Shown here: piece after piece, positions 39,446-62,686 of the stretch
Position numbering within the stretch: the stretch's first letter is position 1
Layout of the letters: every line of letters starts with the position of its first letter
Assembly (NCBI GenBank): GCA_964586735.1
Contig: CAZPIN010000105.1
Location: 1-62,686 of the forward strand
Source: an uncultured Rhodobacterales bacterium
Lineage (GTDB): Bacteria; Pseudomonadota; Alphaproteobacteria; Rhodobacterales; CAZPXZ01
Length of the DNA stretch: 62,686 nt
Direction of reading: 5' to 3'
Program-made: the position numbers and the translations under genes
The notes under the pieces: generated by a model
Databases searched by the model: none
Told to the model about the DNA's origin: nothing
What the model saw: the letters and a program-made list of their open reading frames with translations, nothing else

Positions 39446-39958
39446 TTACTCGCTGGCGTCGCCGTTGCCGCTTCCGTTGAACACCGACTTCAGGTCAGGG
39501 GCTATGTGCAACCTGTCAAGCCACACCAATATCTGGCCCGACGACGCGTCGCTCACCCGGGCTGCAAGATGGTCCGGGACGCTCTGAAACCGCTCTTCGG
39601 CAGCCTTCAGAAAAGCATTCCGATGGGCCATCCTCAGCATTTCCCCATCCTTGAACGTCTCCACTCCTCGCTTGATCTCTCTTGCCAATGCGACCCAGGC
39701 AAACTGCAATACTGGTTGACCGCTGGCCACACTGTCGCCACTTCCGCTGAACACCGACTCCAAGTTTGAAGCTTCCTGCAACATGCCATGCCAGACATCG
39801 AGCTGGTCCGGCGATGCACCGCGCACCCGGATCACCAGATGCTCCGGGATGCTTGTTTTGAATTGCTTCTCGGCAGCCTCCAGAAAAGCCTTCTGGCGTC
39901 CTGTGACATATCCATAAACGTAACCAAGATTCGTCAGGTGCCTAAAGTACGGGCCCAT
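39446..39958 (-). CDS. Free-standing protein made of two tandem DUF4351-like (Rpn C-terminal) modules
   Basis: Module 1: FLEAAEKQFKTSIPEHLVIRVRGASPDQLDVWHGMLQEASNLESVFSGSGDSVAS. Module 2: FLKAAEERFQSVPDHLAARVSDASSGQILVWLDRLHIAPDLKSVFNGSGNGDASE. Both are collinear with the C-terminus of the adjacent frameshifted Rpn gene. ATG 39958 follows TGGAGG; the track start is TTG 39997. Confidence 0.6.
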   Translation of the reverse strand: MGPYFRHLTNLGYVYGYVTGRQKAFLEAAEKQFKTSIPEHLVIRVRGASPDQLDVWHGMLQEASNLESVFSGSGDSVASGQPVLQFAWVALAREIKRGVETFKDGEMLRMAHRNAFLKAAEERFQSVPDHLAARVSDASSGQILVWLDRLHIAPDLKSVFNGSGNGDASE

Positions 39959-40074
39959 GACTGCCTCCAAACCTTCTTGCTTCAGCTCCTTCTCCAAAAC
40001 CGCCGCGATGCGATGCTGGACTCTGCGAACTGGCGCTGACTTGCCAGAGCGGCCCCGGCAAACCGCGAAACCGG

Positions 40075-41024: not shown

Positions 41025-41170
41025 GGCGATTGCTCCCTTGTCTGCGTGGAGACGCTGCCAGCCAGCCTCTCCGGATTGATGGTTCATGCAAGGTAGGCAT
41101 GCGGCGGGGAATTGCAAACGGCGCAATTGCGCAGCACCATGCAATGCGCTCCGTACGACAAATCCTCTCC

Positions 41171-48400: not shown

Positions 48401-49330
48401 AGTACCGTGCTCGTGGATGCGGACGTAGGGGTGCTCCATATCAGGAATCCGCAGGCTTTTGACAAAATACTCGGGGCGTTCAATGGAGCCACGCGGACCG
48501 GTTTCAGTTTGGCTCAGATGCAGTCGCTTGTACGCGCGTCGGACTATGTCCCTGATGATGCAGAGGTATTGACGGCGCGGTACGGTTCGCAGTTCAACTA
48601 CCTGCAACTAACTGTCACTGGCGATCCCGTGTACGCCAACATTAGGATTAATTTGAACAGCGACTACGCTCCTACGCTGGTGCAGTATTCCAACTCAAGC
48701 CGTACCGAGGTCAGGATGCTGGTAGACGACGACGCCGACGGATTCCTGAACGAGACTCACTACCACCGCAACACCGCGGACCGCACACTGTACTGGGAGC
48801 GGCGGGTTTTCGACAGCGACGACGACGGTACGGCGGACGTAATCTGGATTAAGCGGTACAGCCCAGACGGGGGAGCGCTGCTGCGCAGCGAACTTGATAC
48901 GGATGCCGACGGGACAGCCAACAACATCGAGGTTCGGGGGTATGACGGCGAAGGGAGGTCGGCCTACACAGCCGTCGACAAGACCGCAGACGGCTCGATG
49001 GACAGCCTGACGTTCAACGACGGTGAAGACCGCGCAATTGCATGGGACGCGGCGGCGGCGGCAGACCTGGCCGGGCTGAACAGCATTGCGCTGGCGGGAG
49101 GAGATGGCGCGAGCACGCTGTCGCTCAGCGAGGCGGTATTGGCTGCTCTGGCGAACGGCGAAACTGGGTATACGCTGCGCATCGACGGCGATGCCGATGA
49201 CACGGTGCGGTTCACGGATGGTGAGATAGCGCGGGACTCCTCAGCCGATGCTGGGGGACGGGAAGCCTACGCCGCAGGCGGTATCACAGTCCTGATCGAC
49301 CCGGACGTTGCGGTCCAGTTGCCTTCGTAG
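45437..49330 (+). CDS. Giant Ca-loop repeat protein, family 2, with BapA-prefix/retention-like N-terminus (1297 aa); probable T1SS-type adhesin
   Basis: SD GAGGAG lies 10 nt before ATG 45437. The N-terminus VVETYRDGNSLVLVLADGRELRIEDYYLQ resembles the R-x-G-N-D-L-V-I...F-F prefix of BapA/LapA-type adhesins. A hydrophobic G/A/L segment (LGGLGLPLGLTALVAAALGG) follows, then a P/T/S/Q-rich linker and YD-like plus DxDxDG repeats. There are three module A copies, the last at the C-terminus (...REAYAAGGITVLIDPDVAVQLPS). Confidence 0.8.
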   Translation: MASGVVGAADATSGLTVAAMASLTEKLRLAGIESQVVETYRDGNSLVLVLADGRELRIEDYYLQTQRHATEDATAATGLIEDETAADMALARASLEEMFGGDGDHAAAAEATGSAVLDMGPQVASAAPLGGLGLPLGLTALVAAALGGDSGGGSSSPESSPAAQPQENGLAPPPSPQRTVTKTPTASGGQSETSPQPDTSPKPDTSQQTEADTANAESEDGDSETGTVSVPEDGQLGTSSKQSGGESQTGSGGSTDSQPQTAKQQTLNQEEQARQPDQTAQIGPGVGGPGNPPPPPTPQETALARILTSPQTATVDTFATAGVSGVTAVRLDSVKSLLGAMDDVEKTELGLDSLQYVADIVSRYVNPGATNFLDAAVSFPNGGTALEVEVDTDADGSPDRTMTYLHDGLSQFRIEFDDGSDGTLDRIDLDDDGDGTVDQIETRVFNSDGVMTLRSIDSNADGYADIDYYDEDADGSVDRTDTHVYDGQGRRSETRKDLDSDGTIDETLAIGYDAQNRVNLNRYTADGNDDGTPDSILEYRYDPDSGGRVVSYTSDGNADGTVEVIKHYRYDGNGRLVYSVEDDGGDGTADRVVFTDGIGYAYSLEAAEAVTLAGLDRVVLAGDSGSTTLRMTDEALTALADGESAYSLAIDGEDDDVVLLMGSGYALAGGTDSSGRIEYAGTGGSVFVDADVPVVTVGNPEAFEAILAAIMSRGVSPSAAQMQSIARIADYVPEGTEVDSASYAHASKSLSLEISGDPVYTEMYIRLNSGFAATYAQYSNSDSTRIKMVNDADADGNLEKATVQEYFLAGSLLEGLRQGNIARDQSSYDNNDDGTMDVVWIRQWLDGGPIHRSEQDFDADGRMDKVEVSGYDASGRKSYVVEDYTLGQPADGAMDRILFVDSVSRTVAPTAAEAVEFAGIDSVRMAQKGGASTLVLREAALAAIAGSDEAYRLTIDGDADDTLHLRGGSIVRDVSADAGGREAYTMDGSTVLVDADVGVLHIRNPQAFDKILGAFNGATRTGFSLAQMQSLVRASDYVPDDAEVLTARYGSQFNYLQLTVTGDPVYANIRINLNSDYAPTLVQYSNSSRTEVRMLVDDDADGFLNETHYHRNTADRTLYWERRVFDSDDDGTADVIWIKRYSPDGGALLRSELDTDADGTANNIEVRGYDGEGRSAYTAVDKTADGSMDSLTFNDGEDRAIAWDAAAAADLAGLNSIALAGGDGASTLSLSEAVLAALANGETGYTLRIDGDADDTVRFTDGEIARDSSADAGGREAYAAGGITVLIDPDVAVQLPS

Positions 49331-49595: not shown

Positions 49596-51146
49596 ATGGA
49601 AGAGGGCAAGCTTCCAACCGGAATCGACGACTTTCGCAGCATTCGCGAAGGCGGATACTACTATGTCGACAAGACAGGTTTCGCCGAACGGATGGTCCGC
49701 TCGGGCAAAAACTACTTCTTGTCAAGGCCAAGGCGATTCGGCAAGACCCTGTTTGCTGACACGCTTCAAGAGTTGTTCGAGGGCAGCGAGGAGCTGTTCA
49801 AGGGGTTAGCGATTCACAACAGCTGGGATTGGACTACTCGCTACCCTGTGGTTCACCTAGACTTAGGTGGCGACTTCTTTACTGAGCCGGAATACCTTGC
49901 TGGCTATCTCAACTCTGAATTGGATGACATCGAGCTAGCTACCGGTATCACCACTAAATCAAGCGATGCTCCGTTACGTCTTGCTCAGCTGGTGAGGGGG
50001 CTCCGCAGGAAGTCTGGCCGCCCCGTTGTTCTGCTGATTGACGAGTATGACAGACCCATTCTCGATGCGCTCCATCTGCCAGAGGTAGCTCTGTCTAACA
50101 GGAACTACTTGCATAGAATATTTTCTGCAATTAAACGACTGAGCTCCAGCATTCATTTTGTTTTCATTACGGGAATTACTAGATTCTCGAAAGTGAGCAT
50201 GTTCTCCGGCCTCAACAATCTCGAGGATATATCTATAGAGCCGTCGTTTTCGTCAATTTGCGGATATACGGACAGTGACATTGACAATGTATTTGCCCCC
50301 GAACTCGATGGTCTCGACCGTGAAGAAATCCGAGAATGGTACAACGGATACAGTTGGTTTGGGGATGATCGAGTCTATAATCCATTTGATATTCATTTAT
50401 TGCTGAAGTTTCGGGACTATAAACCATGGCGGAGGGAGACTGGAACGCCGGATTTTCTAGTAAATGAGCTAAAGAAGCGTAGCTTGTATTCTGTTGATTT
50501 TGGCAATCCGATCAGTTACGGTGACTTGAACTTTTCTTTTGAGATAGGCAAGGTAGATCCTCAGGCGCTACTGTTTCAAAGTGGTTATTTGACGATTGTG
50601 GGGGAAGAAATAAGAGAAGATGGAAAATATCATCGACTCGATTTTCCAAATCGTGAAGTTTCTATCTGCTTCAATCAGCTTTTGGTGAATAACATGCTTC
50701 CACAATCCCATGTTAGCCACATGGCGCGAGCCTCTTCTATTAGCAAATTTCTTCGGAGTGCAGACTTTAATGGACTAAGAGAGCACTTTTATTCAATTTT
50801 TGCTGGAATTCCGCATCAATGGTTTGTTCGCGCAAACGTGACCAGATACGAAGCCTACGTCGCTGGTTTGTTTTTCTCATATTGCAAAGGAGCGGGGCTT
50901 GACGTTAGAGTTGAAGAAACTACTAACAAGGGGCGGGAAGACATGGCTATACTGGAGCAGAACAATATTTTTCTGTTTGAGTTCAAGGCGGTAGAGGACC
51001 AGCCTACAGGAGACGCTTTGCAGCAGTTGCGAGACAAGCAGTACGCGGATAAATTCCGGCATCTTGGTCGTCCAATTCACCTTATTGGTGTCGAGTTTAG
51101 CAACAGCGAGCGCAACATTGTCGCCTTCGACGTTGAGCAAGCGTAA
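49596..51146 (+). CDS. AAA-ATPase-like / PDDEXK_9-type predicted ATPase-nuclease (copy 2, 516 aa)
   Basis: SD GGGAGAGG precedes ATG 49596. Strings: YVDKTGF, FLSRPRRFGKTLF, VVLLIDEYDRP, and C-terminal GREDMAILEQNNIFLFEFKAV. Collinear with 34846..36462. Visibly lower GC than its neighbours (21/60 in line 50641). Confidence 0.82.
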   Translation: MEEGKLPTGIDDFRSIREGGYYYVDKTGFAERMVRSGKNYFLSRPRRFGKTLFADTLQELFEGSEELFKGLAIHNSWDWTTRYPVVHLDLGGDFFTEPEYLAGYLNSELDDIELATGITTKSSDAPLRLAQLVRGLRRKSGRPVVLLIDEYDRPILDALHLPEVALSNRNYLHRIFSAIKRLSSSIHFVFITGITRFSKVSMFSGLNNLEDISIEPSFSSICGYTDSDIDNVFAPELDGLDREEIREWYNGYSWFGDDRVYNPFDIHLLLKFRDYKPWRRETGTPDFLVNELKKRSLYSVDFGNPISYGDLNFSFEIGKVDPQALLFQSGYLTIVGEEIREDGKYHRLDFPNREVSICFNQLLVNNMLPQSHVSHMARASSISKFLRSADFNGLREHFYSIFAGIPHQWFVRANVTRYEAYVAGLFFSYCKGAGLDVRVEETTNKGREDMAILEQNNIFLFEFKAVEDQPTGDALQQLRDKQYADKFRHLGRPIHLIGVEFSNSERNIVAFDVEQA

Positions 51147-51206
51147 CCGCGCTGAGCAAGTACGCGTAACTTCACATTCGGTGCAGCGACAGTAGAAGGC
51201 ACAGAC

Positions 51207-52169
51207 ATGGGTATTCTAGTAACGGGCAGCAACGGCTTCATTGGCCACCATACATGCAGACAGCTGGTCGAGCGGGGCGAGGATGTCGTCGGCGTTGACG
51301 ATCTTTCCACAGGCTTTGAGGAGGCACGAGTTCCGGGCGCGAACTACCACGTTCGCAATATTCAGGACTTGGAGTATCTGACCGGCCTGCTGCGCGACGT
51401 TCGCCCTCGGGCCGTCATCCATCTGGCTGCCATCGCACGCGTGGCCCAGTCGGTTCAATATCCCCTGCGTAACGCCGACGCCAACGTACTTGGCACGCTG
51501 TCGGTACTCAGCGCGGTGCGGGACGCGGGTTTGGTCGAGCATACCCGAGTAGTGTCCGCCAGCAGCAGCAGCGTCTATGGCAACACGGAAGTGTTGCCGA
51601 CGCCGGAAACAGCAGACCGCAGTCCACGCTCCCCCTACGCTCTTGCCAAACTACAGGCGGAGCAGTGGTGCTCGATGTTCCATAACCTGTATGGGCTGGA
51701 TGCGGTTTCGCTGCGATACTTCAATGTCTATGGTCCTGGCGCTCGCTTCGGCGGCGCTTATTCCACGGTGCTGCCAGCTTGGCTGTACCATATTTTCGTC
51801 GAGCCGTCGGAGGTAGCCTTTCTTGAAGGCGACGGTACGCAGTCCCGCGACTTCAGCTACGTAGACGACGTGGTGTGCGCCAATCTCGCAGCGGCCGACC
51901 GTGCCGTGAGGTTTTCTGGTGAGGCGGTCAACATTGGCGGCGGGGATAGCCAGACACTGCTTGATATAGCCAGGCTGCTGGAGGAAACCGCTGGCAGCGA
52001 GCTGAATCTGGAACGGCGCCCGCCCCGTCAAGGTGATGTGATGCACACCGCCGCAGACATCAACGTTGCGCAGCGTTTGCTGGCTTGGACGCCGCAGGTA
52101 CCGTTCGACGAGGGATTGCGTCGTACAGTGGACTGGTGGCGAGAGGCACGTCCACCGCAATTATCATGA
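51207..52169 (+). CDS. NAD-dependent epimerase/dehydratase (extended SDR family, UDP-sugar 4-epimerase-like; 320 aa)
   Basis: N-terminal Rossmann motif ILVTGSNGFIGHH. Catalytic YxxxK in SPYALAKLQAE. Also RYFNVYGPG. Typical length for the family. Confidence 0.88.
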   Translation: MGILVTGSNGFIGHHTCRQLVERGEDVVGVDDLSTGFEEARVPGANYHVRNIQDLEYLTGLLRDVRPRAVIHLAAIARVAQSVQYPLRNADANVLGTLSVLSAVRDAGLVEHTRVVSASSSSVYGNTEVLPTPETADRSPRSPYALAKLQAEQWCSMFHNLYGLDAVSLRYFNVYGPGARFGGAYSTVLPAWLYHIFVEPSEVAFLEGDGTQSRDFSYVDDVVCANLAAADRAVRFSGEAVNIGGGDSQTLLDIARLLEETAGSELNLERRPPRQGDVMHTAADINVAQRLLAWTPQVPFDEGLRRTVDWWREARPPQLS

Positions 52170-52399
52170 CCTGAGGTGTTGTGAGCGGGGTGTATTCGCC
52201 TGTGTCCTGGTGACCCAGGTGTGGCGATTCGGACACGGTATTTCAGCATCAGTATTGTCGGGACGGTCTGCTATGCGGAAAGAGATACATCTCCTACGCC
52301 GGCGGGTTGGGCGACGAACTCCTCATGCTTTGAGCTGTTGCGTGAGACTTTTGCCCGCCGGTGCAGTAGTCCCCGTCTTGCGGACTCGAGATGCTGCTG

Positions 52400-55300
52400 T
52401 TAAAGGGCAACGACCGTGATATCAGGATCGATGAAGATTATGCCATCTGTTCCCTGATACCCGTTTCGCCCCGCTTCGTCTGTTTCCTTGTCACCCGTGG
52501 CCCCGCTAAGGCCACTTAGTGTTACGCGATCGTTGCCGTCTCCATCAATAATTAGCTTATAGTTCAATGCGCTGCCCGCAAGTACTGTCAAGTCCTCGTC
52601 GCTAATTGTGATCTTCGTTGAACCAATTCTAAATCCGTCGTTCCCTGCCAGCTCCATCTTGGTGATTCCGGTTAGCAACGCTAGGTCAAAATCGCTCAAG
52701 GTCAACGTTACAGTATTTCCGTCAATGAACTCCAACCGATCCGGTGTACCGTCGTTTGATCCACCCTCATTGTCATATATTCTAATGTCCATAATGCCGT
52801 CCATTGTAGTATCCCCTGTTCCGTCCATATCCTCGTCTAGTGGGCCTTCGGTTGCAAGGTCAAATTCTTGCCGTTCCGCTGTTGAATCAAAGTTCGGATC
52901 GAACCACCTGCGCACCGTCCTGCCAAAGAAGCTGAAAGTGGTGACATAGTCCACTTCGATGCCGGAAGGCGATAGATTATCGTCCAGGCTGAGTTTAACT
53001 CTCCTTCGATCCACTGGCGTTACGCCATCGCTCTCAAATGTCTCCAAAGAAAATCTCATGAGCGGTTCGGTGCCCTCAAATCTAACAGTGTCGGTGATAA
53101 ACCTGGATACACCGGGAATGACGTACTCATTGGCGACAAAGTCGTCAATCAATGTTTCCAGCATTTCTCTGCTTATGTCAGTATACCTTAGTGGAAACGG
53201 GAAACGAAATGCCCGTACTGCCTGCCAAACCAAATGATGGTCCACATCCGCGGCGTTTACGCCATGCCGCTCGAAAACCGATTCATGGTTGTACGCAGTC
53301 CCGTCGAACGCGTCCCCGGCCCGTATAGCGCTTCGATTACCGTCAATTACCTCCAAAACATCCAATACTCGAATTACCTCCACGCCTGAATCAACGTATA
53401 CTGTTCCATCAGAGCCTTGATACTCGTCCCGGCCGCTGGAGTCAGTACCCCCAGTCGCCACTATCCCACCTCCCAAGTCCAACACGCCGCCATCTGCGCC
53501 ATGAAAAACAATGGTATAGCCCGATCTGCTGCCAGCCAGGGCGGTCAGCGTATCGTCAGACAGCCTGAATGTTGAATCAACATCTTCACCGGAGAAGTGC
53601 ACATTCCCAATTCCTGCAAAGTCACCAGTCTCCGCTTCTTTGAGATTGAAAAAGTGAGGCGCATCTCTGTAGAAGTGAATCGCGTCAGGCGAACCATCTC
53701 CCAGTTCGTCATCCACTCCATATATGCGGGTTCCTTCGTCATCATAGAAATACTGCAGCTCGCGTACTAGTGTTTCATTTGTCCCGCTGTACACTAGTTC
53801 CCTGTCAATCTGCCCGTTTGAATTGAAGTGCCGTACCGCCACGTGATCCGTGCCGTTTAGCATACCGTCATCACCACGCTCCTCGTATCGTTCTACGACA
53901 GCGAGGTATCCCGCTGCATCATACGTAGTTTGTCGCCATGTCTCAAATGTTCCGTCTTCATCGTTGTCTGTACGTACTGTTTCAGTTTCTCTCGTGTTGG
54001 CCTGGACTCTGTAATTCGTTTCACGGCGAACCTCTAGTGTTCCGTTGTTGTCGTAATCTACTTCAAAAAGAACTTCATCGCCGTTTATGTTTAGTTCGCG
54101 CTTGTCAGAATGGTCTACTGTACCGTCATCTGCGGTTCCCATGTCCATATTCGAACCGCCAAGTCCATCATCGTATTCAATATGCAACTCCGATACGGCC
54201 ATACCATCTGGCGCATAGATCGTACGCAAACGCCTTTCAAAGTGTCCGTCGTCGTCCATATCAGTAACGTCATGCCTTTCCGTAAGTATGTCATCCTCCG
54301 TCCCATTGTCGCTTGTCGTACTGTATCGCAATTCTACCCGGCCTTCGGGTGTGCCGTCTCCGTCGACATCCGTGTAGGTAATTGTGGAAACAGCTTCATT
54401 CGTACCATTGCTGTCCATGTCAGTCTCCGTTCGATCCGGTCTACCATCCAGATTATCATCAAACACCGCATATTCAGAGGCCAATGTGCTGTCGTTCAGG
54501 GTAAGCCAAACGACAAAATTTTCCGAACTGCCTGCATCGTCGCTGTCAATCCCGAGCATGAGGGTCAAAGCGCCTTCTTCACCTTGGGAAACTGATGCGG
54601 ACACAATCGCGCCGCCTGTCGGTACAAAACGGTCTACAGCGTCCGTCAACGAGTCAACTCTTGTTTGGTTGAAGGTTGAGTAGAGGTTGAGAAGCACAAC
54701 CGACTCTTCGCGGCTATCCGTCTCCAAGCTGTCTAGAATAGCGTCCAGTGCAGCAGGGGTACCCAGTACCGAAACCGCCTGCGCGACTAGAACTTTTCCG
54801 TTTCGTCCCTGGTATTCGTCTTTTCCATCGATAACTCTACCCGTCGCGTATATGCCTCCATTGAAGGTCACGGAGTCGTTAGCCTCGCCATCAATAGCAA
54901 GTTCATAGCCGCTCTCGCCGTTTGCCATTGTCGTCAGATGAGTGTCATCCAGAGTAAGTCTGGTAACCCCTTCAGAAGACGAGTCCGTACCGGTGACCTG
55001 GTCCCCCGACAGCTTAATGGCATCAATGCCTGCAAACTCAACTGCGATTTCAGCAGTTACAACCACCTCGGTGCGATCGGGCACGGTCGGAGCGGGAGCC
55101 TGCGGGGGAGCAACTCCATCGGGGAACTTAACGCTGTCCAGAGTCCCATCTTCATCGCTGGTACCAGATCCGTCACGCAGGATGAAATCCGTTGTTCCGT
55201 CCTCATTAATATCGCGGTCAATCGATTCGTCAATACCATCATAGTCGCGATCTGCTTCAATGGTATCAATGGTTCCATTTCCGTCGCGATCCCGATGTAC

Positions 55301-58300
55301 GATAATTCCAGTTATGGAAAACGCCGCTGGAGAAACAATTATTTGCAGCATTCGGTCAACTGTTTGGTCACTGTCTTCATCTATGCCGATCACAAGTCTG
55401 TCCGGTATGGCAGACTGAGTGAATGGTATAGCTGGCTGCGCTGGTGCAAACACAGAAGAAATAACAGAATCGTCAGTTCCAAATACGCGGTGCTCGCCGG
55501 CGATATCAATTAACCCCTGTACCTGAGTCGAGGTTAAGTCGCGTAGCTTTGGGCTAGAATGCTGTTCGTTGTCGAAAGAGCCAATCAATCCTTTTATATT
55601 TTCCAGATTTCCCTCTGTTACATCAGTGAGTCCCGCCAGTTCAAACATCTTCAAAGTAGCTTCTCCCAAGTGGCGCAGCACTCCCGCGAGCGGGTCCAGT
55701 GCCCCTCGGACCTCCACGTCTGGGCCCACGTAGAATTTTGCATTCGTGCCCTGGTACTCACGCCGGCCTTGATCGTCCGTTCCTCCGGTTTGATAGATAA
55801 TCTCATTGCCATTGGTGGTTCCGTCTCCGATAATGACGAAGTCATCAACATTTCCATTCACCGGAGAATCTGGATACCCATCAACGGTAAAGGAGTAATT
55901 ACTGTCCAGTACGCCATTGGGGCTTGCCAATGCGGTGAGGGCATCGTCGTCAATTTTCAGAGAAACGCCAACACCGCTATAAGGCGGGTTGGGCGACTTG
56001 GTACCAGGTAACATAACCTCTCTCACTCCAGTAACTTCACTCCTAGTTGAATCCAGCGTTAGGTCGTAGTGTATTACCTCATCCGTTCCGAAACCAGCCG
56101 CAAAGAACTGCAATCGGTCTACCGTGCTGTCGTATCGGTTATCCGTTCCAAATCCGTCATACCTGGTGTACAGAGCTTCGCTGTTGCTTCCTAGATAAGT
56201 GTGATACTCCGCCCTGTCTCGAGTGCCGTCAGCGTCGTCGTCGAAAAACTGCGTATCAATACGACCAGTAGCGTCATAGGCATTGGTTTGAGTTTCATCT
56301 GCCGTTCCGTCGTCGTCGATATCCGTTTCAATTTGCACCGTTTCAATAAAGCCGTCTCCCGAGTACATGGTGATGGTTACTCTATCAACAACGTATGCGT
56401 CATCGTCGCTGTTTATTTCAACGCGAAGCTCTTCAAGCGCAGCCCCGTCGGCACCAAACGTTTCAAACCGGTGCTCATCACGTGTACCGTCAACATCCGT
56501 ATCAATAGCGGTAGTACGAGTTATCAGCAGCCCGTTGGTGAAATTAGAAGTTGCCACAGTCTCGTATGTTCCGTCCATGTTGATGTCGATGCTTTCGGTT
56601 ACGATATCTACCATGCCGTCAAAGTTGTTGTCGGCCTCCTGCCGGTCCCCAATGGTTCCATCATTGTCAGCATCGACATCCCGCACCATTTCTGTTGGTG
56701 CAAACGCTGCTGAATCGAGAGTCAGCGTAACCCGCTGATCGACTGTGCCATCTCCGTCGGTGCTGATACCAAGTACCAGCTGCTCCATATCCAGGCTAGC
56801 GATTTCCAACACCCCCCCAAAAGGCACTACAGCGACTTCGCCGGTGATTATTCCTGCTAATGCCCGTACTTGCGCTAGTGTAAGGCTTTCCCGAGGTGGC
56901 GTGGTTTCTTCGTTCCATTGCCCAATTACCAGCTTTACGGCGGAGAGATTTTCACTGGTCACACCGGGAATGGCTGCCGTGGCAAACAGTTCCACCGTAG
57001 CAGCGCCGAGGTTGCTGAGAATGCTCATTAAGGCGTTAAACAGCGTGAAGTCGACGATGATGTCCGAATCCAGCAATATCGTGCCGTGACTGCCCCTTAG
57101 AGCGCGATATCCAGCAGGAGTTTGGTCAACTGTCGCGTCCACGATCTGATCGTCTGTAACCGCAAGTGCTCCACTGGCCCCATTGACTGTAAGCACGAAT
57201 CCGACATCGGGGGTTCCATCGCTGTCCCTGTCTGACAGCCGGGTTAACGTCTCGTCGTCTATCTCTACACTTTGCTCACCACTTCCTTCTCCAAGATTGA
57301 TCTCGGTAATTCCCGCGAATTTCTCCACTTCGTTAGCGCCGAACGCCAGGTGGAAGGATACACCGCTGGCAAGCGTTAGCTTGTCGAGCGTACCGTCATC
57401 GTCTCCGGTACCCGTGCCATCGCTAAGGATGTAGTCAACTGTACCGTCATCATTGGAATCGTACGCGATGGTTTCGGCATTGCCGTCTGCTTCAGCGTCG
57501 GTTGCCACCGTCTCGTAGGTGCCGTCGGAGTCGTCATCGCGGCTTAGTGTTGCTCCAGAAACAGCAAAATTCGCAATATTTAGCGCAAGCGCCGCGCTCA
57601 GTTCAATCGCTGGATCCGAGTGGGTGCTTATGCCAAGCGTTAGTACACTCCCTGACCAGGCTGCAGAGTCAACGATTGCGCCAGCGGGCACGATCTCGGC
57701 GTCGTTGACAATGTCTACAAGCCCCTGTATCTGTACCTGCGTCAGACTGGTCAGAATTGGCGTGGTTTCCGCGCCGAAAGCACCGATGGTCGTTCGTACG
57801 TTTTCCAGATTGCCAGAGGAGATACCCCTCAGACCGGTCTGCTCGATCATCGCCAGCGTCGCGATGTCCAGATGTCGAAGCACTGCTGTCAGTGGATCAA
57901 CCGCTCCCATCACACTGACCGCCGGTCCTACTAGAACCCTGCCGTTCGTGCCCTGATACTCTTCGCGGCCATTGGCAGTGACGCCGGTTCCGTAGATTGC
58001 GTTTCCAGTAAACACCAACCGGTCGTCGCTTCCCCCGTCAATAACCAGTTCATAGCCGCTGTCTGGCGTACCGTCGCCCTTGCCATCCGCCAGCAGAGTC
58101 AGCTGCGCGTCAGAAATAGTAAGCGTTGTCCTTCCGGTTCCGATGCGGATGTCACCGGCCAGATCAATCGCGCGGATGCCGGCAAATTCCCTCGCAAGTG
58201 CATCGCGCAAGGCCAGGTTGTATTCCCCGGGGCCGGAAATCACCAGACGGTCTGGAACGCCGTCGTCATCGGACGTTCCCGTGCCGTCATACAGCATGTA

Positions 58301-60982
58301 CCCGACTGTACCGTCGCTGTCAGAGTCATAGGCCACGCTCTCGCTTGCACCGTCTCCATCGGCGTCGGTTGCCACCCTCTCAAAATTGCTGTCGCCATCG
58401 GCGTCCTCCAGTATCAGATTGTCATATGCGCCATCTCCGTCAGTGTCCTCGCGGACCGTTGCGCCAGCCGGCCCATAGGTTTTCGGCGCGAGCCCAATGA
58501 CAACTTCTCGCTCGTCACCAATGCGCTGGCCGGTGTCTATCCGCAGAGTCAGCGTGCCAGCCCCACCTCCCGCGCTCTCCGTGTACGCGGCGCTGGAGAT
58601 GGCCGCTCCGCTCGGTACGAAATTCGCTTCATCCGCGATTTCAGCCAGCGACTGCACCTGCGTCAGACTCAGGTTGGTGCGCATCGGATTGCTATTGCCG
58701 TCCCATGCCTCCAGCACCGCCTGCACATTGGCCAGATTGGCGCTGGTAGCCGTGGTAATCCCTGCCAGCTTATACATGGCCACGTCGTTGTCTGAAGCGG
58801 ACGGGTCGGCGAGTATGTTCCGCAGCGCCTGCGCAGACCTGTCGACTACCTCGACATTCGCGTCGACATGGACTCTTCCATTGGTGGCGATAAAGATTTG
58901 CCTCCCTGTCTCCGCCTCGGTTCCCGCGCTCGCAAAGCCGTGGGAGGCCAGAATTACGGCGTCACCTGCTTCGCCCGCGATGACCAACTGATAGCCGCTG
59001 TCCGGGGCACCATCTCCATCGCGGTCCGCCAGCAGGGTCAAATGCAAGTCGGAAATCGTTAGCCTGGTCGATCCATCCGTTCCTGCTATGTCGTCGGCAA
59101 AATTGATTGCCTGCAGGCCGGCAAACGCAGCTGCCAGATCGTCGGTCAGTGCCAGCGCGTAGGTTTTGCCATCCACAAACTCCAGCCGGTCTATGGTGCC
59201 GTCTGCCGGGTCGCTGGTACTGAAGCCGTCGACTGCCGTGTAGACGTGGTCCTCGTTGGCGCCGTCAAAGTAGCGGGTCGAGTCGATGTCTAACGCTCCA
59301 TCGTCGTTAGTGTCTTCGCTTATCTGCTCTCGTTCGACGAATCCGTCGTCGCCATAGAAGTACTGCCGCCGTTCATCGACGTTGTCGTCGCTGTCGGGGT
59401 TCAATTCCACCGTGCGCAGCCTGCCGTTAGCGTAGAATCTGGAGATTCTGTCTAAGCCGCCGTCGCCGTCCGTGTCCGATTCGATCCTATCCAGAGTGCC
59501 GTCTTCGCGGTAGAAGTAGAAGTCCGTCTTGTCCGCTTTGCCGTCTGGGGTGCCGTCCTCGGTCTCGCCATCGTCGTACACTTCGGATGCCAGCCGGTCC
59601 CCAATGCCGTCCCCGTCAATATCCATGTACAATAGAGTCCTGATCTGCCGCAGCAGCCTCGGGTCCGTGATTCCGGCTGTCTTCTCGTCCGCGTCCGGCG
59701 TTCCATAGCTCTCGACAGCGTCGACGCTGCCGTCTGCCGATTCGCCCGGCGTTCCGCTGTCGTCGATGGACCGTTCGATGACGTAGTTGCCGCTGCCGTA
59801 GGTAAAGCTCTCGATTCGGCTGTAATGCCTGACGTCGTCTGGATTCGAGGCGATACCCGCCACATCCACGGTCCCTTGGGCGGGAGCCTCGGCAATGCGC
59901 ATTTCGCTTGGCACGAGCAGTTCGTTCTGCACAATGTAAACCACCCGGTCCACATCACCTGTACCATCGCTCGGATTGTCAATCTCTAGTCGCAGCGACC
60001 CCGCATCGGCAACAAGCACGGCCTCGCCTCCCTCAGAGTCGACTGCCTCGTTGACGGTGTCAATCAGTACCTGCAGTCGTTGCCTCTGCACCGCACTGTC
60101 TTGGTTGACCAGCCCAACCAGCGCCCCGCTTGCCTCGTCAAGCTCGGCCTCCAGCACTGTCCTCAGATTCTTCAGATTGCTTTCCGTAACGCTATCCAGT
60201 CCGGCGACCAGAGCCCGTCCCGCCGTCAGCGAATCTGGATTGCTGAGAATTCGCCTTAAGGCGCTTTCGGGTGTCTCCCTATCCTCAGCGCCGCCGCTGG
60301 ATGCGCTTCCGGCTGCCAGCAGCAGCACCCCGCCAAGAAGGGCTGCGCCGCCGCCAGGAACGCCAAGCCACCAGCCGCCGTCTTCCTCTTCGCCCGTCGA
60401 CTCCTCGGCTTGTGCCGGAACGGTCGCCTCGGATGCCGGCTTGGCCGCAGCTGCTTCCTGCGCGGTTTCCCCGACTGGCGACGTCGGCGCAGACTCTGCC
60501 GAGACTGCCTGCGCCGTTCGGAGTGGGCTTCCGCCAACCGCCGCGTCCGCTTCAGTCCCTGCCTCTAGATTCGCTTTCTCATGCTCGGCTGCATCCCACT
60601 GCGTGATTTCGGCTGCCTGTGTGACTCTGGCAACTGCCTCTGGTGTCCGTTCGACGCCAAGCATCTCATCCAGATGGCTGCGGGAAACCGCCTCAAAAGA
60701 GATGATGCGTCCCGCCTCGGTAACCTTGACCACGAGGGCTCCGCTGTTACCGTCATTGACAAGCAGCGCGGGACTTCCAGCAGTGTCAGTGCGGAAATAG
60801 TCCTGTACCACCAGTGAGCGTCCGTCGGCCAGCTCTAGGATCAGGTTGTTGCCCTCGCGGTAACTGAGAAGAATCTCCTCAATGGCGACCTGCAGCCGGA
60901 CAGATTCAACGCTACCGCCGCTAACCCAGACCTCCCGCTCAGGGGGAGTCGTCATTGGCTGGGCAACCGTGTCAACGCTCAT
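52400..60982 (-). CDS. Giant Ca-loop repeat protein, family 2, with BapA-prefix/retention-like N-terminus (~2860 aa); probable T1SS-type adhesin
   Basis: The ORF track starts at GTG 61024; ATG 60982 follows GAGG. The N-terminus is SVRLQVAIEEILLSYREGNNLILELADGRSLVVQDYFRTDTAGSPALLVNDGNSGALVV (BapA-prefix-like). A hydrophobic segment follows (GGWWLGVPGGGAALLGGVLLLAAG). There are seven supermodules of the same A/B/Ca-loop type as 17053..22479. It ends in module A (...GYQGTDGIIFIDPDITVVAL). Confidence 0.85.
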   Translation of the reverse strand: MSVDTVAQPMTTPPEREVWVSGGSVESVRLQVAIEEILLSYREGNNLILELADGRSLVVQDYFRTDTAGSPALLVNDGNSGALVVKVTEAGRIISFEAVSRSHLDEMLGVERTPEAVARVTQAAEITQWDAAEHEKANLEAGTEADAAVGGSPLRTAQAVSAESAPTSPVGETAQEAAAAKPASEATVPAQAEESTGEEEDGGWWLGVPGGGAALLGGVLLLAAGSASSGGAEDRETPESALRRILSNPDSLTAGRALVAGLDSVTESNLKNLRTVLEAELDEASGALVGLVNQDSAVQRQRLQVLIDTVNEAVDSEGGEAVLVADAGSLRLEIDNPSDGTGDVDRVVYIVQNELLVPSEMRIAEAPAQGTVDVAGIASNPDDVRHYSRIESFTYGSGNYVIERSIDDSGTPGESADGSVDAVESYGTPDADEKTAGITDPRLLRQIRTLLYMDIDGDGIGDRLASEVYDDGETEDGTPDGKADKTDFYFYREDGTLDRIESDTDGDGGLDRISRFYANGRLRTVELNPDSDDNVDERRQYFYGDDGFVEREQISEDTNDDGALDIDSTRYFDGANEDHVYTAVDGFSTSDPADGTIDRLEFVDGKTYALALTDDLAAAFAGLQAINFADDIAGTDGSTRLTISDLHLTLLADRDGDGAPDSGYQLVIAGEAGDAVILASHGFASAGTEAETGRQIFIATNGRVHVDANVEVVDRSAQALRNILADPSASDNDVAMYKLAGITTATSANLANVQAVLEAWDGNSNPMRTNLSLTQVQSLAEIADEANFVPSGAAISSAAYTESAGGGAGTLTLRIDTGQRIGDEREVVIGLAPKTYGPAGATVREDTDGDGAYDNLILEDADGDSNFERVATDADGDGASESVAYDSDSDGTVGYMLYDGTGTSDDDGVPDRLVISGPGEYNLALRDALAREFAGIRAIDLAGDIRIGTGRTTLTISDAQLTLLADGKGDGTPDSGYELVIDGGSDDRLVFTGNAIYGTGVTANGREEYQGTNGRVLVGPAVSVMGAVDPLTAVLRHLDIATLAMIEQTGLRGISSGNLENVRTTIGAFGAETTPILTSLTQVQIQGLVDIVNDAEIVPAGAIVDSAAWSGSVLTLGISTHSDPAIELSAALALNIANFAVSGATLSRDDDSDGTYETVATDAEADGNAETIAYDSNDDGTVDYILSDGTGTGDDDGTLDKLTLASGVSFHLAFGANEVEKFAGITEINLGEGSGEQSVEIDDETLTRLSDRDSDGTPDVGFVLTVNGASGALAVTDDQIVDATVDQTPAGYRALRGSHGTILLDSDIIVDFTLFNALMSILSNLGAATVELFATAAIPGVTSENLSAVKLVIGQWNEETTPPRESLTLAQVRALAGIITGEVAVVPFGGVLEIASLDMEQLVLGISTDGDGTVDQRVTLTLDSAAFAPTEMVRDVDADNDGTIGDRQEADNNFDGMVDIVTESIDINMDGTYETVATSNFTNGLLITRTTAIDTDVDGTRDEHRFETFGADGAALEELRVEINSDDDAYVVDRVTITMYSGDGFIETVQIETDIDDDGTADETQTNAYDATGRIDTQFFDDDADGTRDRAEYHTYLGSNSEALYTRYDGFGTDNRYDSTVDRLQFFAAGFGTDEVIHYDLTLDSTRSEVTGVREVMLPGTKSPNPPYSGVGVSLKIDDDALTALASPNGVLDSNYSFTVDGYPDSPVNGNVDDFVIIGDGTTNGNEIIYQTGGTDDQGRREYQGTNAKFYVGPDVEVRGALDPLAGVLRHLGEATLKMFELAGLTDVTEGNLENIKGLIGSFDNEQHSSPKLRDLTSTQVQGLIDIAGEHRVFGTDDSVISSVFAPAQPAIPFTQSAIPDRLVIGIDEDSDQTVDRMLQIIVSPAAFSITGIIVHRDRDGNGTIDTIEADRDYDGIDESIDRDINEDGTTDFILRDGSGTSDEDGTLDSVKFPDGVAPPQAPAPTVPDRTEVVVTAEIAVEFAGIDAIKLSGDQVTGTDSSSEGVTRLTLDDTHLTTMANGESGYELAIDGEANDSVTFNGGIYATGRVIDGKDEYQGRNGKVLVAQAVSVLGTPAALDAILDSLETDSREESVVLLNLYSTFNQTRVDSLTDAVDRFVPTGGAIVSASVSQGEEGALTLMLGIDSDDAGSSENFVVWLTLNDSTLASEYAVFDDNLDGRPDRTETDMDSNGTNEAVSTITYTDVDGDGTPEGRVELRYSTTSDNGTEDDILTERHDVTDMDDDGHFERRLRTIYAPDGMAVSELHIEYDDGLGGSNMDMGTADDGTVDHSDKRELNINGDEVLFEVDYDNNGTLEVRRETNYRVQANTRETETVRTDNDEDGTFETWRQTTYDAAGYLAVVERYEERGDDGMLNGTDHVAVRHFNSNGQIDRELVYSGTNETLVRELQYFYDDEGTRIYGVDDELGDGSPDAIHFYRDAPHFFNLKEAETGDFAGIGNVHFSGEDVDSTFRLSDDTLTALAGSRSGYTIVFHGADGGVLDLGGGIVATGGTDSSGRDEYQGSDGTVYVDSGVEVIRVLDVLEVIDGNRSAIRAGDAFDGTAYNHESVFERHGVNAADVDHHLVWQAVRAFRFPFPLRYTDISREMLETLIDDFVANEYVIPGVSRFITDTVRFEGTEPLMRFSLETFESDGVTPVDRRRVKLSLDDNLSPSGIEVDYVTTFSFFGRTVRRWFDPNFDSTAERQEFDLATEGPLDEDMDGTGDTTMDGIMDIRIYDNEGGSNDGTPDRLEFIDGNTVTLTLSDFDLALLTGITKMELAGNDGFRIGSTKITISDEDLTVLAGSALNYKLIIDGDGNDRVTLSGLSGATGDKETDEAGRNGYQGTDGIIFIDPDITVVAL

Positions 60983-61364
60983 TCGCGCACCTCGTTTGCC
61001 AGTGGCTTCGTTGCTACCAGACACCGCTGCGGCTGGGGTTCCAATACTGAGGCTTGACCCAAAAAGCCGCCCGCAGCCGTGCGGACATTCTATCCGCCGA
61101 TTTGTTCGAGATGGGCCTTCGCAGCTCTAGGCCAAGCGCAGCCGCTGCCACACGCCATTTGCAGGACAATGTACTGATCGTTCGAAGCTGGCGGCTTGGT
61201 AGGAGGCCACCCTCACCCTGAGGGGGGTGCGCTTGTGCCCGCCGTCCGTCCACGCTAGACACGACCCGCAACGTTCGCTTGGCGGTCTTCCAGATTGGCG
61301 CTCGTGGACACAGGCCGGACGGGCATCTGTTGTGCCTGCTCCGAGGCAGCCAAGGGAGCGCATC

Positions 61365-62444
61365 ATGCAGGACGAAGCCAGCGAATCGAACCCTCAGGAA
61401 GTGGCCAGCAAGGACATCGAGTCTAGGCTGATCCACTTCCCGTATGACAGCATCCTGAGCTTGATGTTCGATGACGAGCAGTGTTGTACCGACTTTGTTT
61501 TGGACCACGGCGACAAGGACTTGGTCCGTCATCTGGCTGGGGGTCCCGCCTCGACTAAGCCCACCAGGCAGGTCGGCAATGGGCTGAAGCGCGCAGAAGC
61601 CGATTCGCGGTTTAGGCTGGCGACGACGGATGAGGAGATGTCCGACGTAGAAGTCACGGTGGAGTTTGATTCGGGCGGGAACGACACCAAGGCGTTCAAG
61701 AAGACGCTGGGCTATGTGCTCAGGGGAGTGCTTCGTTGGCTGAGAAGCGGTGAGGCCCCTCTCGCCTCCAGCGCGTTTCTCGTAAGCACGGGAGAAAGGC
61801 CGTATTCAGGCCCTCGGTCACTTGGAGAATTGGTGCCCGGGCTCGACCGCATGGGGGATTCCGCTCTGAATTTCATAATAAAAATTCTGGATTTTTCCCA
61901 TGTAGAGCCGAAAGATCTGGTAAGCAAGAACCAGAAGAATTCGGTCATTCTCCTGACTGTGTACTTCGCCGTTGCCTCCCGGCGCGCTAGAGCAGACTTT
62001 GATAGCTGGATGGACTTCATCTTCAGCCAGCCGAATGTCCGAGACGACGTACTGGCAGTGGTTGTGCTGTTCATGAAGTTCCTGTATGGTGACGCGTATC
62101 AGGCGGTGATGAAGGCTAAGCTCCGTTCCGCCCGACCCTATGACTGGAGGAATATCATGGATGCTGCAATCAGGGAAATCGTGGAAGCCGTAGGGCCAGA
62201 GTACGAGGCCCGCGGAGAGGCCCGCGGGGAGGCCCGCGGGGAGGCCCGCGGGGAGGCCCGCGGGGAGGCAAAGGGGAGGTCCAAGATACTCACCCATTCG
62301 CTGGAAAGCGTGTTTGGTGCCCTGCCGAACGGCTACAAGCAGCGCATCAGCGACGCCAGCGAGGAGGACATCCTGCGCTGGAACGTCAGGCTTCACGGGG
62401 CCACCTCGCTCGACCAGGTCTTCGACGACTCCGCTGATGACTGA
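61365..62444 (+). CDS. Rpn/YhgA-like PD-(D/E)XK family protein with (EARG)5 repeat and DUF4351-like C-terminal module (359 aa)
   Basis: The ORF track starts at 61227; ATG 61365 follows AAGGGAG (61352-61358). Core-like strings: AEADSRFRL...VEVTVEFDSG...LGYVLRG and FLVSTGERPYSGPRSL. The C-terminus is EYEARGEARGEARGEARGEARGEAKGRSKILTHSLESVFGALPNGYKQRISDASEEDILRWNVRLHGATSLDQVF. Confidence 0.75.
   Translation: MQDEASESNPQEVASKDIESRLIHFPYDSILSLMFDDEQCCTDFVLDHGDKDLVRHLAGGPASTKPTRQVGNGLKRAEADSRFRLATTDEEMSDVEVTVEFDSGGNDTKAFKKTLGYVLRGVLRWLRSGEAPLASSAFLVSTGERPYSGPRSLGELVPGLDRMGDSALNFIIKILDFSHVEPKDLVSKNQKNSVILLTVYFAVASRRARADFDSWMDFIFSQPNVRDDVLAVVVLFMKFLYGDAYQAVMKAKLRSARPYDWRNIMDAAIREIVEAVGPEYEARGEARGEARGEARGEARGEAKGRSKILTHSLESVFGALPNGYKQRISDASEEDILRWNVRLHGATSLDQVFDDSADD
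62205..62276 (+). repeat. In-frame 12-bp tandem repeat GAGGCCCGCGGR x5 plus one variant unit (encodes EARG x5, EAKG)
   Basis: Units start at 62205, 62217, 62229, 62241 and 62253, with the variant gaggcaaagggg at 62265. The duplicated copy downstream (62532-62591) has only 4 perfect units plus the variant. Confidence 0.92.
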
Positions 62445-62477
62445 CCGGCTGCTGCTGGGGCCAGCGGTGACTGGAGA

Positions 62478-62686
62478 ATGATCATGGATGCTGCAATAAG
62501 GGAAATCGTAGAGGCCGTAGGGCCGGAATACGAGGCCCGCGGGGAGGCCCGCGGAGAGGCCCGCGGAGAGGCCCGCGGGGAGGCAAAGGGGAGGTCCAAG
62601 ATACTCACCCATTCGCTGGAAAGCGTGTTTGGTGCCCTGCCGAACGGCTACAAGCAGCGCATCAGCGACGCCAGCGAGGAGGACAT
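62478..62686 (+). CDS. Partial (3'-truncated by window) free-standing DUF4351-like ORF: duplicated Rpn C-terminal module with its own ATG
   Basis: ATG ATC ATG GAT GCT... translates to MIMDAAIREIVEAVGPEYEARGEARGEARGEARGEAKGRSKILTHSLESVFGALPNGYKQRISDASEED. It stays open to the window end. It is absent from the ORF track because no stop codon is reached. I see no convincing SD. Confidence 0.5.
   Translation, partial: MIMDAAIREIVEAVGPEYEARGEARGEARGEARGEAKGRSKILTHSLESVFGALPNGYKQRISDASEED

What the first reader, a model, noticed from the sequence alone, without database searches (positions are those of the whole stretch)
62141..62686. Head-to-tail duplication of the Rpn C-terminal module with a different EARG repeat number (5 versus 4), continuing beyond the window
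Seen: unit 1 (62141-62467) contains the last ~101 codons of the Rpn-like gene plus 23 nt. Unit 2 starts at 62468 and is still open at 62686. The copies differ by a few substitutions near the 5' end and by one 12-bp unit (GAGGCCCGCGGR: 5+1 versus 4+1). The last 95 nt are identical. Unit 2 has acquired ATG ATC ATG where the full-length gene reads AAT ATC ATG (N-I-M). The Met conserved in both is a candidate internal start for a small C-terminal protein. Inference: this is the same theme as at 39.4-41.0 kb, namely amplification of the Rpn C-terminal module as separate ORFs, here with a hypervariable coiled linker. More copies may follow downstream.
Basis: partly seen in the sequence, partly recalled or inferred. 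Interest (0 to 1): 0.66.

Follow-up and report, generated by a model that had tools for sequence, protein, structure and literature searches.

The report
Second antitoxin copy behind Rpn gene
A sponge-bacterium Rpn nuclease gene, a toxin that carries its own antitoxin inside it, is followed by a real second copy of that antitoxin part with one fewer 4-amino-acid repeat; E. coli rpnE-ypaA has the same layout, so this is a new example of a known design.

Summary
Unit 1 (62141-62467) and unit 2 (62468 to the window end) differ by 10 substitutions and one 12-nt GAGGCCCGCGGR unit (5+1 versus 4+1 EARG/EAKG).

It is not assembly stutter. In two independent sponge metagenomes the unit1-unit2 junction and an exit contig into unique DNA each sit at 1x depth, and the shared core sits at about 2x. 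So there are exactly two copies, and no further copies follow.

The gene belongs to the Rpn/YhgA family (hhalign 99.8% to E. coli RpnA). The shared Met (62157) aligns with RpnA Met244, the proven internal start of the RpnS antitoxin, and has a GGAGG 6 nt upstream. Unit 2 is therefore a stand-alone "rpnSs" gene, as in E. coli rpnE-ypaA, where the two copies also differ by one 12-nt unit.

All 7 substitutions inside the small ORF are synonymous, which points to purifying selection. The "acquired" ATG at 62478 lies 1 nt after the SD and is unlikely to be the start.

In 14 long-plus-small pairs from other genomes and metagenomes, 13 also differ in repeat number.

Verdict: a new member of a known kind, of modest interest.

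The parts
61365..62444 (+). rpnL-like gene (359 aa from ATG 61365; the ORF is open from GTG 61227). It has an N-terminal PD-(D/E)XK (Transposase_31/YhgA-like) nuclease domain and a C-terminal RpnS/DUF4351-type module.
   Evidence: ORF list. Pfam PF04754 scores only 17.7 bits (GA 21) for the single sequence. Homologues carrying PF04754 plus PF14261 reach E 6e-16. The family profile against E. coli RpnA gives hhalign probability 99.8%, E 3e-29. The AF2 model has pLDDT 87.8.
61446..61664 (+). Span holding the conserved acidic residues D28 (61446-61448), D80 (61602-61604) and E100 (61662-61664), which match RpnA D11, D63 and E82. RpnA Q84 is D102 here, and R94 is K112.
   Evidence: Alignment A4 has invariant columns D80 and E100 and near-invariant D28. 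RpnA mutant phenotypes come from PMC5350276.
62141..62467 (+). Unit 1 of the head-to-tail duplication: the last 101 codons of rpnL including the stop, plus a 23-nt spacer.
62146..62159 (+). GGAGG Shine-Dalgarno (62146-62150), a 6-nt spacer, then ATG 62157: the candidate internal start (iTIS) of the RpnS antitoxin.
   Evidence: Sequence. This Met aligns with RpnA Met244, the experimentally verified iTIS (PMC10400941).
62157..62444 (+). Internal RpnS ORF (95 aa). It has a long helix 1 holding the repeats, followed by short helices.
   Evidence: AF2 model with pLDDT 80.6, helix at residues 3-53, then 58-66 and 69-79. Small homologues reach E 6e-12, and 26 of 36 of them match PF14261.
62205..62276 (+). 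12-nt repeat array 1: 5 x GAGGCCCGCGGR (EARG) plus GAGGCAAAGGGG (EAKG). It begins at residue 17 of RpnS.
62445..62467 (+). 23-nt spacer between the rpnL stop and unit 2. A hairpin is predicted but is not significant, and there is no U tract.
62468..62686 (+). Unit 2: a stand-alone rpnSs gene (second antitoxin copy), cut by the window end. GGAG is at 62473-62476 and the probable start is ATG 62484. By the contig graph it continues identical to unit 1 up to the equivalent of 62434 and then leaves into unique DNA.
62532..62591 (+). 12-nt repeat array 2: 4 x EARG plus EAKG, one unit fewer than array 1.

Best explanation
The locus is an Rpn-family toxin-antitoxin / candidate anti-phage gene. The full-length product (RpnL) is a PD-(D/E)XK DNA nuclease. 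An internal start at Met265 (ATG 62157, GGAGG 6 nt upstream) would give the small RpnS protein, the C-terminal helical module that binds RpnL and blocks it. Directly behind the gene sits a tandemly duplicated stand-alone copy of that module with its own SD and ATG (62484). This is an 'rpnSs' gene of the E. coli rpnE-ypaA type. The two copies differ by one 12-nt (EARG) unit in helix 1, the tract whose length sets which RpnS pairs with which RpnL in E. coli RpnC. Shown here: family membership; positional identity of the Met with the proven RpnA iTIS; reality of the duplication and a copy number of two; purifying selection on unit 2; and recurrence of the same layout, with unequal repeat numbers, in many phyla. 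Inferred from the E. coli work: translation from the internal Met, antitoxin activity, and that a 4+1 copy pairs poorly with a 5+1 RpnL. Also inferred: the 12-nt units change by slippage, and the identical core between diverged flanks reflects gene conversion between the copies.
For: Family: the profile including the window protein against E. coli RpnA gives 99.8% probability, E 3e-29. D28/D80/E100 align with D11/D63/E82, and window Met265 aligns with RpnA Met244. Homologues carry PF04754 plus PF14261.
SD and ATG geometry.
Repeat position: the repeats start at residue 17 of RpnS, inside the published 8-20 window.
The duplication is real and there are two copies: junction at 1x, core at about 2x, exit contig at 1x, in X1 and X2.
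Selection: all 7 substitutions inside the small ORF are third-position synonymous, and the 3 others lie upstream of the Met. dN/dS is 0.07.
Same anatomy in E. coli K-12 rpnE-ypaA: the duplication starts at the SD, and copy spacing is 183 versus 195 nt, i.e. one 4-aa unit.
Survey: 14 long-plus-downstream-small pairs from Nocardia, Magnetococcales, Acidobacteria, Paracoccaceae and others are 58-99% identical, have dN/dS 0.10-0.41 (not computable for L036, whose synonymous sites are saturated), and differ in repeat number by multiples of about 4 aa in 13 of 14.
Literature: RpnS antitoxins, repeat-number specificity and rpnSs copies (PMC10400941; PMC10400984).
Against: The window protein alone is below the Pfam thresholds for both PF04754 (17.7 < 21 bits) and PF14261 (no hit). 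The residue matching RpnA Q84 is Asp and the adjacent His is Phe, so nuclease activity is not assured; E. coli RpnE is annotated as inactive. Foldseek and profile searches did not recover the RpnAS crystal structure 7TH0. hhalign of the module family against YpaA is weak (37%). No RNA or ribosome data exist for this organism, and no sigma-70-like promoter was found. The end of unit 2, including its stop codon, was not read. PADLOC models give no hit.
Confidence: 0.8

Rival explanations
1. Assembly artefact: the assembler stuttered at a repeat, or merged two strain alleles of one module into a false tandem at the contig end.
For: The window ends inside the repeat. The region fragments into short Logan contigs. 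A third run (X3) shows neither the junction nor either 5' haplotype.
Against: An independent junction contig (62405-62597) links a module end, the 23-nt spacer and the unit-2-specific variants in X2. The same path is present in X1. Depths of 1x junction, about 2x core and 1x exit fit a tandem pair. The units carry 10 substitutions, so this is not a simple stutter.
Confidence: 0.04
2. Unit 2 is a decaying, untranslated remnant of a duplication, i.e. a pseudogene. K-12 ypaA is flagged this way in RefSeq.
For: ypaA is annotated as a pseudogene. The unit 2 SD is weakened (GGAGG to GGAGA). No promoter was found, and there is no expression evidence.
Against: Changes inside the ORF are 7 synonymous and 0 non-synonymous. 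With about 23% synonymous sites this gives P of about 3e-5 (my calculation). The ORF stays open through at least 89 codons by the contig graph. All surveyed downstream copies for which the ratio could be computed have dN/dS 0.10-0.41. YpaA protein was detected experimentally (PMC10400941).
Confidence: 0.08
3. Unit 2 is simply an extra dose of the cognate antitoxin for the adjacent RpnL, and the one-unit difference has no functional consequence.
For: Apart from the missing EARG unit, the protein is identical to RpnS over all 67 residues visible in the window. It is probably co-transcribed, 23 nt behind the stop. Koonin suggests second copies decouple toxin and antitoxin for regulatory flexibility.
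Against: In E. coli RpnC a mismatch of one 4-aa repeat abolished neutralisation (PMC10400941). Thirteen of 14 surveyed pairs, plus E. coli rpnE-ypaA, have unequal repeat numbers. That would be odd if matching were needed for the downstream copy's job.
Confidence: 0.25

Closest known systems
E. coli K-12 rpnE-ypaA (rpnE plus rpnESs), and rpnC-rpnCSs in some strains (Zhong et al. 2023, PMC10400941)
   Same: A full-length rpn gene is followed on the same strand, within a few tens of nt, by a small gene that is a head-to-tail copy of its own C-terminal module. The duplication starts at the SD of the internal start. The two copies differ by one 12-nt / 4-aa unit: spacing 183 versus 195 nt in E. coli, 327 versus 315 nt here.
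   Different: The host is a very distant, uncultured sponge-associated bacterium, and the N-terminal domain is about 10% identical to RpnA in the profile alignment. The repeat is EARG (the GEARG-type DUF4351 subfamily) rather than WQEG/KLEG. Here the downstream copy has fewer units, whereas in E. coli it has more. The central 182 nt are identical between flanks that have diverged, which suggests recent gene conversion.
RpnL/RpnS gene-within-gene toxin-antitoxin and phage defence (RpnA, RpnB, RpnC, RpnP2)
   Same: PD-(D/E)XK N-terminal domain with the D/D/E triad. An internal Met aligns with RpnA Met244 and has an SD. The small C-terminal helical module has a long first helix. The 4-aa repeats start 16 residues after the Met, and their number varies between related strains: 5, 4 and 3.
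   Different: No functional data exist here. The Q84-equivalent is Asp and His83 is Phe. No defence-island context was recognised. The predicted module did not retrieve 7TH0 by fold search.
Stand-alone DUF4351 (PF14261) small proteins
   Same: The module's closest relatives are 64-167-aa proteins, and 26 of the 36 aligned match PF14261. 'GEARGEARGE' is the consensus of the family. Three of three examined lie directly behind an Rpn-like gene.
   Different: The window's own module scores below E 0.01 against PF14261.
TAEL repeat variation in the HsdS subunit of EcoR124I / EcoR124II (cited in PMC10400941)
   Same: The number of 12-nt / 4-aa repeats in a helix sets a molecular spacing and hence a specificity.
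   Different: There the repeat sets a DNA-recognition gap. Here it presumably sets the register of a protein-protein interface. The proteins are unrelated.

Membership tests
Rpn / YhgA-like (PF04754, COG5464) RpnL-RpnS systems | N-terminal Transposase_31 / PD-(D/E)XK domain homologous to E. coli RpnA | tested here: met
   hhalign of family alignment A4 (window protein as first row) against RpnA gives probability 99.8%, E 3e-29 over 254 columns. phmmer hits to PF04754 proteins reach 6e-16 with 91% coverage. The single-sequence Pfam score of 17.7 bits is below GA 21.
Rpn / YhgA-like (PF04754, COG5464) RpnL-RpnS systems | Residues essential in RpnA: D11, D63, E82 (and Q84, R94) | tested here: inconclusive
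   D28, D80 and E100 are conserved. Q84 is replaced by D102, H83 by F101 and R94 by K112. In RpnA, Q84K is dead but Q84A is still toxic, so activity cannot be judged from sequence.
Rpn / YhgA-like (PF04754, COG5464) RpnL-RpnS systems | Internal translation start giving RpnS from the C-terminal module | tested here: inconclusive
   At sequence level this is met: Met265 aligns with RpnA Met244, and GGAGG lies 6 nt upstream. Translation itself is not testable, because no RNA runs are available.
Rpn / YhgA-like (PF04754, COG5464) RpnL-RpnS systems | C-terminal module is a small helical bundle with a long first helix (RpnAS, PDB 7TH0) / DUF4351 | tested here: inconclusive
   The AF2 model shows a helix at residues 3-53 followed by short helices, with pLDDT above 90 for residues 40-90. 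Twenty-six of 36 close homologues match PF14261. However, there is no Foldseek or profile hit to 7TH0, and hhalign to YpaA gives only 37%.
Rpn / YhgA-like (PF04754, COG5464) RpnL-RpnS systems | Four-amino-acid (12-nt) repeats beginning 8-20 residues after the internal Met, with number variable among strains | tested here: met
   EARG units begin at residue 17. There are 5+1 in unit 1, 4+1 in unit 2, and two fewer than unit 1 in a related strain in run X5. The criterion comes from PMC10400941.
Rpn / YhgA-like (PF04754, COG5464) RpnL-RpnS systems | RpnL is toxic or a nuclease; RpnS binds and neutralises it; the system protects against phage | not testable with these tools
   This needs expression, nuclease and plaque assays.
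rpnSs (ypaA-type) downstream second copy | A small gene immediately downstream on the same strand, most similar to the C-terminus of its own upstream rpn gene | tested here: met
   There is a 23-nt spacer. The protein is identical over all 67 aligned residues of the small ORF (71/72 in the local alignment that also covers the N-to-M change upstream of the Met) apart from one missing EARG unit. The anatomy matches L002 rpnE-ypaA.
rpnSs (ypaA-type) downstream second copy | Own ribosome-binding site and start, intact ORF, and evidence of constraint | tested here: met
   GGAG at 62473-62476 lies 7 nt before ATG 62484. The ORF is open to the window end, and by the contig graph to the equivalent of 62434. 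Substitutions are 7 synonymous and 0 non-synonymous.
rpnSs (ypaA-type) downstream second copy | The protein is made | not testable with these tools
   No RNA runs hold the stretch.

The most novel reading that the evidence does not exclude
The downstream copy is not a spare dose of the cognate antitoxin. Instead it is a deliberately mismatched module: a stored alternative-specificity cassette. Recombination or gene conversion between the two direct repeats could re-set, in one step, the repeat number (and so the pairing specificity) of both RpnL and its internal RpnS. Alternatively, the mismatched small protein could neutralise other RpnL alleles or titrate a phage factor. Three observations fit this reading. 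Repeat numbers are unequal in 13 of 14 surveyed pairs, plus the window and E. coli. A conversion-like identical core lies between diverged flanks. A related strain has an RpnL-linked module that carries the unit-2 haplotype at 5 of 5 synonymous sites and a third repeat number.
Probability: 0.15. Interest if true: 0.6.

Novelty: new member of a known kind. Interest (0 to 1): 0.3.

Why it matters
The locus extends a layout so far documented experimentally only in E. coli (with C. difficile evidence for the internal start) to an uncultured sponge-associated bacterium and, through the survey, to many phyla. That layout is an Rpn nuclease with an internal antitoxin plus a separate downstream antitoxin copy. 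The practical gain is for annotation. The small ORF should be called as a gene starting at ATG 62484, and the contig break is explained by the repeat. The one point of wider interest is that downstream copies almost always have a different repeat number from their upstream partner while staying under purifying selection. Mismatched repeats abolish neutralisation in E. coli RpnC, so this raises a testable question about what the second copy is for.

Tried and rejected
Extending the sequence past 62686 failed:
- No exact-product record exists for either RpnL start or for the neighbouring giant gene.
- Only an 8-kb Logan contig carries a nearby window protein.
- A protein scan of genome contigs found no relative of RpnL.
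- Two exact-pattern scans of metagenome contigs found nothing.
- The exit 30-mer is not in the window, so there is no circular closure.
- The last 10 or so nt and the stop of unit 2 therefore remain unread.

Structure-based links to RpnAS 7TH0 or to a solved full-length Rpn also failed. Foldseek gives nothing significant for either model; the weak top hits for the full-length model are PD-(D/E)XK nucleases such as Nt.BspD6I, XisH and TnsA at E of 0.04 or higher. Sequence and profile searches against the PDB give only low-complexity or chance hits.

NCBIfam and PADLOC give nothing. The Pfam 'Shadoo' and ribosomal S10 hits are artefacts of the EARG repeat.

Rejected ideas:
- ATG 62478 as the start: its SD spacing is 1 nt.
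- A terminator or attenuator in the spacer: the hairpin z-score is -1.44 and there is no U tract.
- A third copy: ruled out by depth and the exit contig.

No metatranscriptome run was available. An alignment of all 36 small homologues was too diverse for locus finding, so a narrower one was used.

Full report
**1. The observation**

- The repeat finder reports 62141-62257 against 62468-62584 at 91%, and 62217-62371 against 62532-62686 at 99%.
- Tandem Repeats Finder reports a 12-nt array (GAGGCCCGCGGR) of 5.4 copies at 62205-62269 and 4.4 copies at 62532-62584.
- An exhaustive placement of a single 12-nt gap gives 10 substitutions and one indel.
- The last 119 nt of the window (62568-62686) are identical to 62253-62371.
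- Unit 1 is the last 101 codons of the ORF 61365-62444, including its stop, plus 23 nt. Unit 2 starts at 62468 and is open at the window end.

**2. Is it real, and how many copies are there?**

The stretch occurs in sponge-metagenome runs. Only Logan contigs (k=31) are available, and their graph is informative.

In run X2:
- The unique flank, ending at 62246 in the repeat tract, has depth 7.8.
- A 182-nt contig covering 62253-62434, which is common to both units, has depth 13.
- A 193-nt contig covering 62405-62597 has depth 6.7. It spans a module end, the 23-nt spacer and the unit-2-specific variants.
- A 725-nt contig has depth 9.0. It starts at 62405, follows the window to 62449 with 4 mismatches, and then runs into unrelated sequence (AGCATCCGGAGGGTCC...).

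Run X1 shows the same paths with depths 9.6 (flank), 16.4 and 11.5 (exit contig).

One entry, one junction and one exit at 1x, with the core at about 2x, means exactly two modules in tandem followed by unique DNA. So this is not stutter, and no further copies follow. The window simply ends where the assembler could not resolve the repeat.

By the same graph, unit 2 stays identical to unit 1 up to the equivalent of 62434, nine nt before the stop, and then diverges. Its stop codon could not be read.

Run X3 has the core at 1x but neither 5' haplotype, nor the junction, nor the exit. A more distant strain in X5 has an RpnL-linked module with two repeat units fewer than unit 1. The locus is therefore polymorphic in the population.

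**3. What the gene is**

On its own, the 359-aa product is below Pfam thresholds (PF04754 17.7 bits against GA 21; no PF14261 hit). The closest proteins in 5.8 billion are only about 25% identical. However, they cover 91% of the length and carry PF04754 plus PF14261.

A 36-sequence alignment with the window protein as first row matches E. coli RpnA at 99.8% probability, E 3e-29. This alignment places:
- window D28, D80 and E100 on RpnA D11, D63 and E82, whose alanine mutants are dead (PMC5350276);
- D102 on Q84, and K112 on R94;
- window Met265 (ATG 62157) on RpnA Met244.

Met244 is the internal start whose mutation abolishes the small RpnAS protein (PMC10400941).

In the window a GGAGG sits 6 nt upstream of this ATG. 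An AlphaFold model of the 95-aa product has a helix from residue 3 to 53 that contains the EARG units, followed by short helices. The EARG units start at residue 17, within the published range of 8-20 residues after the internal Met.

Fold and profile searches did not retrieve the RpnAS crystal structure. The equivalence of the module therefore rests on three things: its position, its DUF4351 relatives (26 of 36 match PF14261), and its repeat architecture.

**4. What unit 2 is**

Zhong et al. showed the following:
- RpnL proteins are toxic nucleases.
- RpnS proteins made from the internal start are their antitoxins.
- The number of 4-aa repeats varies between strains.
- In RpnC, a one-repeat mismatch abolishes neutralisation.
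- Some loci carry a second, separate copy (rpnSs) downstream, for example ypaA behind rpnE. These copies arose from the upstream gene itself.

I checked the K-12 locus. The rpnE-ypaA duplication starts at the SD of the internal start (AAAAGGAGAG...ATG). The copy spacing changes from 183 to 195 nt, which is one extra KLEG unit in YpaA.

The window has the same anatomy. The duplication starts at TGACTGGAG, that is, at the SD. There is a 23-nt spacer, and the copies differ by one 12-nt unit.

The likely start of unit 2 is the conserved ATG 62484, which lies 7 nt after GGAG. The 'acquired' ATG 62478 lies only 1 nt after it and is an unlikely start.

The substitutions support this. The three changes at 62150, 62152 and 62153 lie upstream of the Met. 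All seven changes inside the small ORF are third-position and synonymous. With about 23% synonymous sites, seven of seven has a probability of roughly 3e-5 (my calculation). Unit 2 is therefore under purifying selection as a protein.

**5. How general the layout is**

The module's nearest relatives are small stand-alone proteins, and 'GEARGEARGE' is their consensus. Three of three that I looked up sit directly behind a 336-355-aa Rpn-like gene whose C-terminus they copy.

A scan of species-representative genomes found 424 relatives. Among the 80 loci fetched, ten more have a long gene plus a downstream small copy. These come from Nocardia, Magnetococcales, Acidobacteria, Paracoccaceae, Aestuariivita and Rhodoferax.

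Across the 14 pairs:
- Identity is 58-99%.
- dN/dS is 0.10-0.41 where it could be computed (synonymous sites are saturated in L036).
- The repeat tract differs by 4, 8, 12, 16 or about 20 residues in 13 pairs. Only L044 is equal.

One locus (L009) has two downstream copies with 4, 2 and 1 leading EARG units. Longer arrays therefore do exist elsewhere, just not here.

**6. History of the window pair**

Divergence is uneven. There are 8 differences in the first 64 nt, 2 plus the indel in the repeats, none in the next 182 nt, and then 4 of 15 at the 3' end before the sequences part. An identical core between diverged flanks suggests an older duplication with recent gene conversion (inference).

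In run X5, the RpnL-linked module of a strain about 10% diverged carries the unit-2 nucleotides at all five synonymous sites between 62171 and 62201. This points to exchange of module sequence between positions or lineages, but the stretch is short.

**7. Function**

The best-supported reading is an RpnL/RpnS toxin-antitoxin gene with a second, separately encoded RpnS paralogue. What the second copy does is open.

If the RpnC result generalises, a 4+1 protein would pair poorly with a 5+1 RpnL. The near-universal inequality of repeat numbers in the survey argues against a simple extra dose. However, fast slippage could produce the same pattern neutrally.

No promoter, terminator or significant RNA structure was found around the spacer, so co-transcription with rpnL or rpnS is the simplest assumption. 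No expression data are available.

**8. Verdict**

The feature is a new member of a known kind. Interest is modest. The main residual question is the role of repeat-mismatched downstream copies.

Noticed in passing
window 29368-30393 (-): A third Rpn-like gene (341 aa) with a canonical E-A-K-S motif and a C-terminal module containing EGEAKGEARERARG. No downstream small copy was detected.
   Followed up: partly
window 39446-41144 (-): An Rpn-like gene split across two overlapping frames (40584-41144 and 40075-40803), which is either a frameshift or an assembly error. It is followed by ORF 39446-39997, which carries two more C-terminal modules. The three modules are 51-66% identical in protein and about 77% in DNA, and have almost no EARG tract.
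   Followed up: partly
window 49596-51146 (+): A 516-aa protein with AAA-ATPase_like (PF09820) and PDDEXK_9 (PF08011) hits. No PADLOC match.
   Followed up: partly
window 30-6785, 7228-16662, 17044-22479, 22725-29207, 45437-49330 (+) and 52400-61024 (-): Six giant ORFs of 1297-3144 aa. The one read is rich in D/G/T repeats of an adhesin or calcium-binding type. Together they fill most of the window.
   Followed up: no
window 1-13: The window begins with a run of 13 C, probably an assembly or contig-end artefact.
   Followed up: no
window 20000-24000 and 50000-57000: GC falls to 0.47-0.50 and 0.51-0.53 respectively, against 0.60-0.69 elsewhere. Both dips lie inside giant ORFs.
   Followed up: no
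L009 1776-3951 (ENA ctg518567l): An Rpn-like gene followed by two downstream small copies. The leading EARG units number 4, 2 and 1, and the proteins are 98% identical otherwise.
   Followed up: partly
L012 408-5127 (MAG, uncultured delta proteobacterium): Four full-length Rpn-like genes in a head-to-tail array, each with a C-terminal module.
   Followed up: no
window 62362-62449, run X5: In another sponge metagenome, a 1645-nt contig with depth about 180-220 matches the module's 3' end at about 90%. Neighbouring contigs have depth about 20. This suggests a multicopy or very abundant relative.
   Followed up: no
window 61942-62406, run X3: A third sample holds the module core (62248-62406) at single-copy depth. 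It lacks both 5' haplotypes, the junction and the exit contig, so it carries a further allele of the C-terminal region.
   Followed up: partly
L002 7817-8002 (E. coli K-12 ypaA): RefSeq flags ypaA as a pseudogene, although Zhong et al. detected the protein. It differs from the RpnE C-terminus by one extra KLEG unit.
   Followed up: yes
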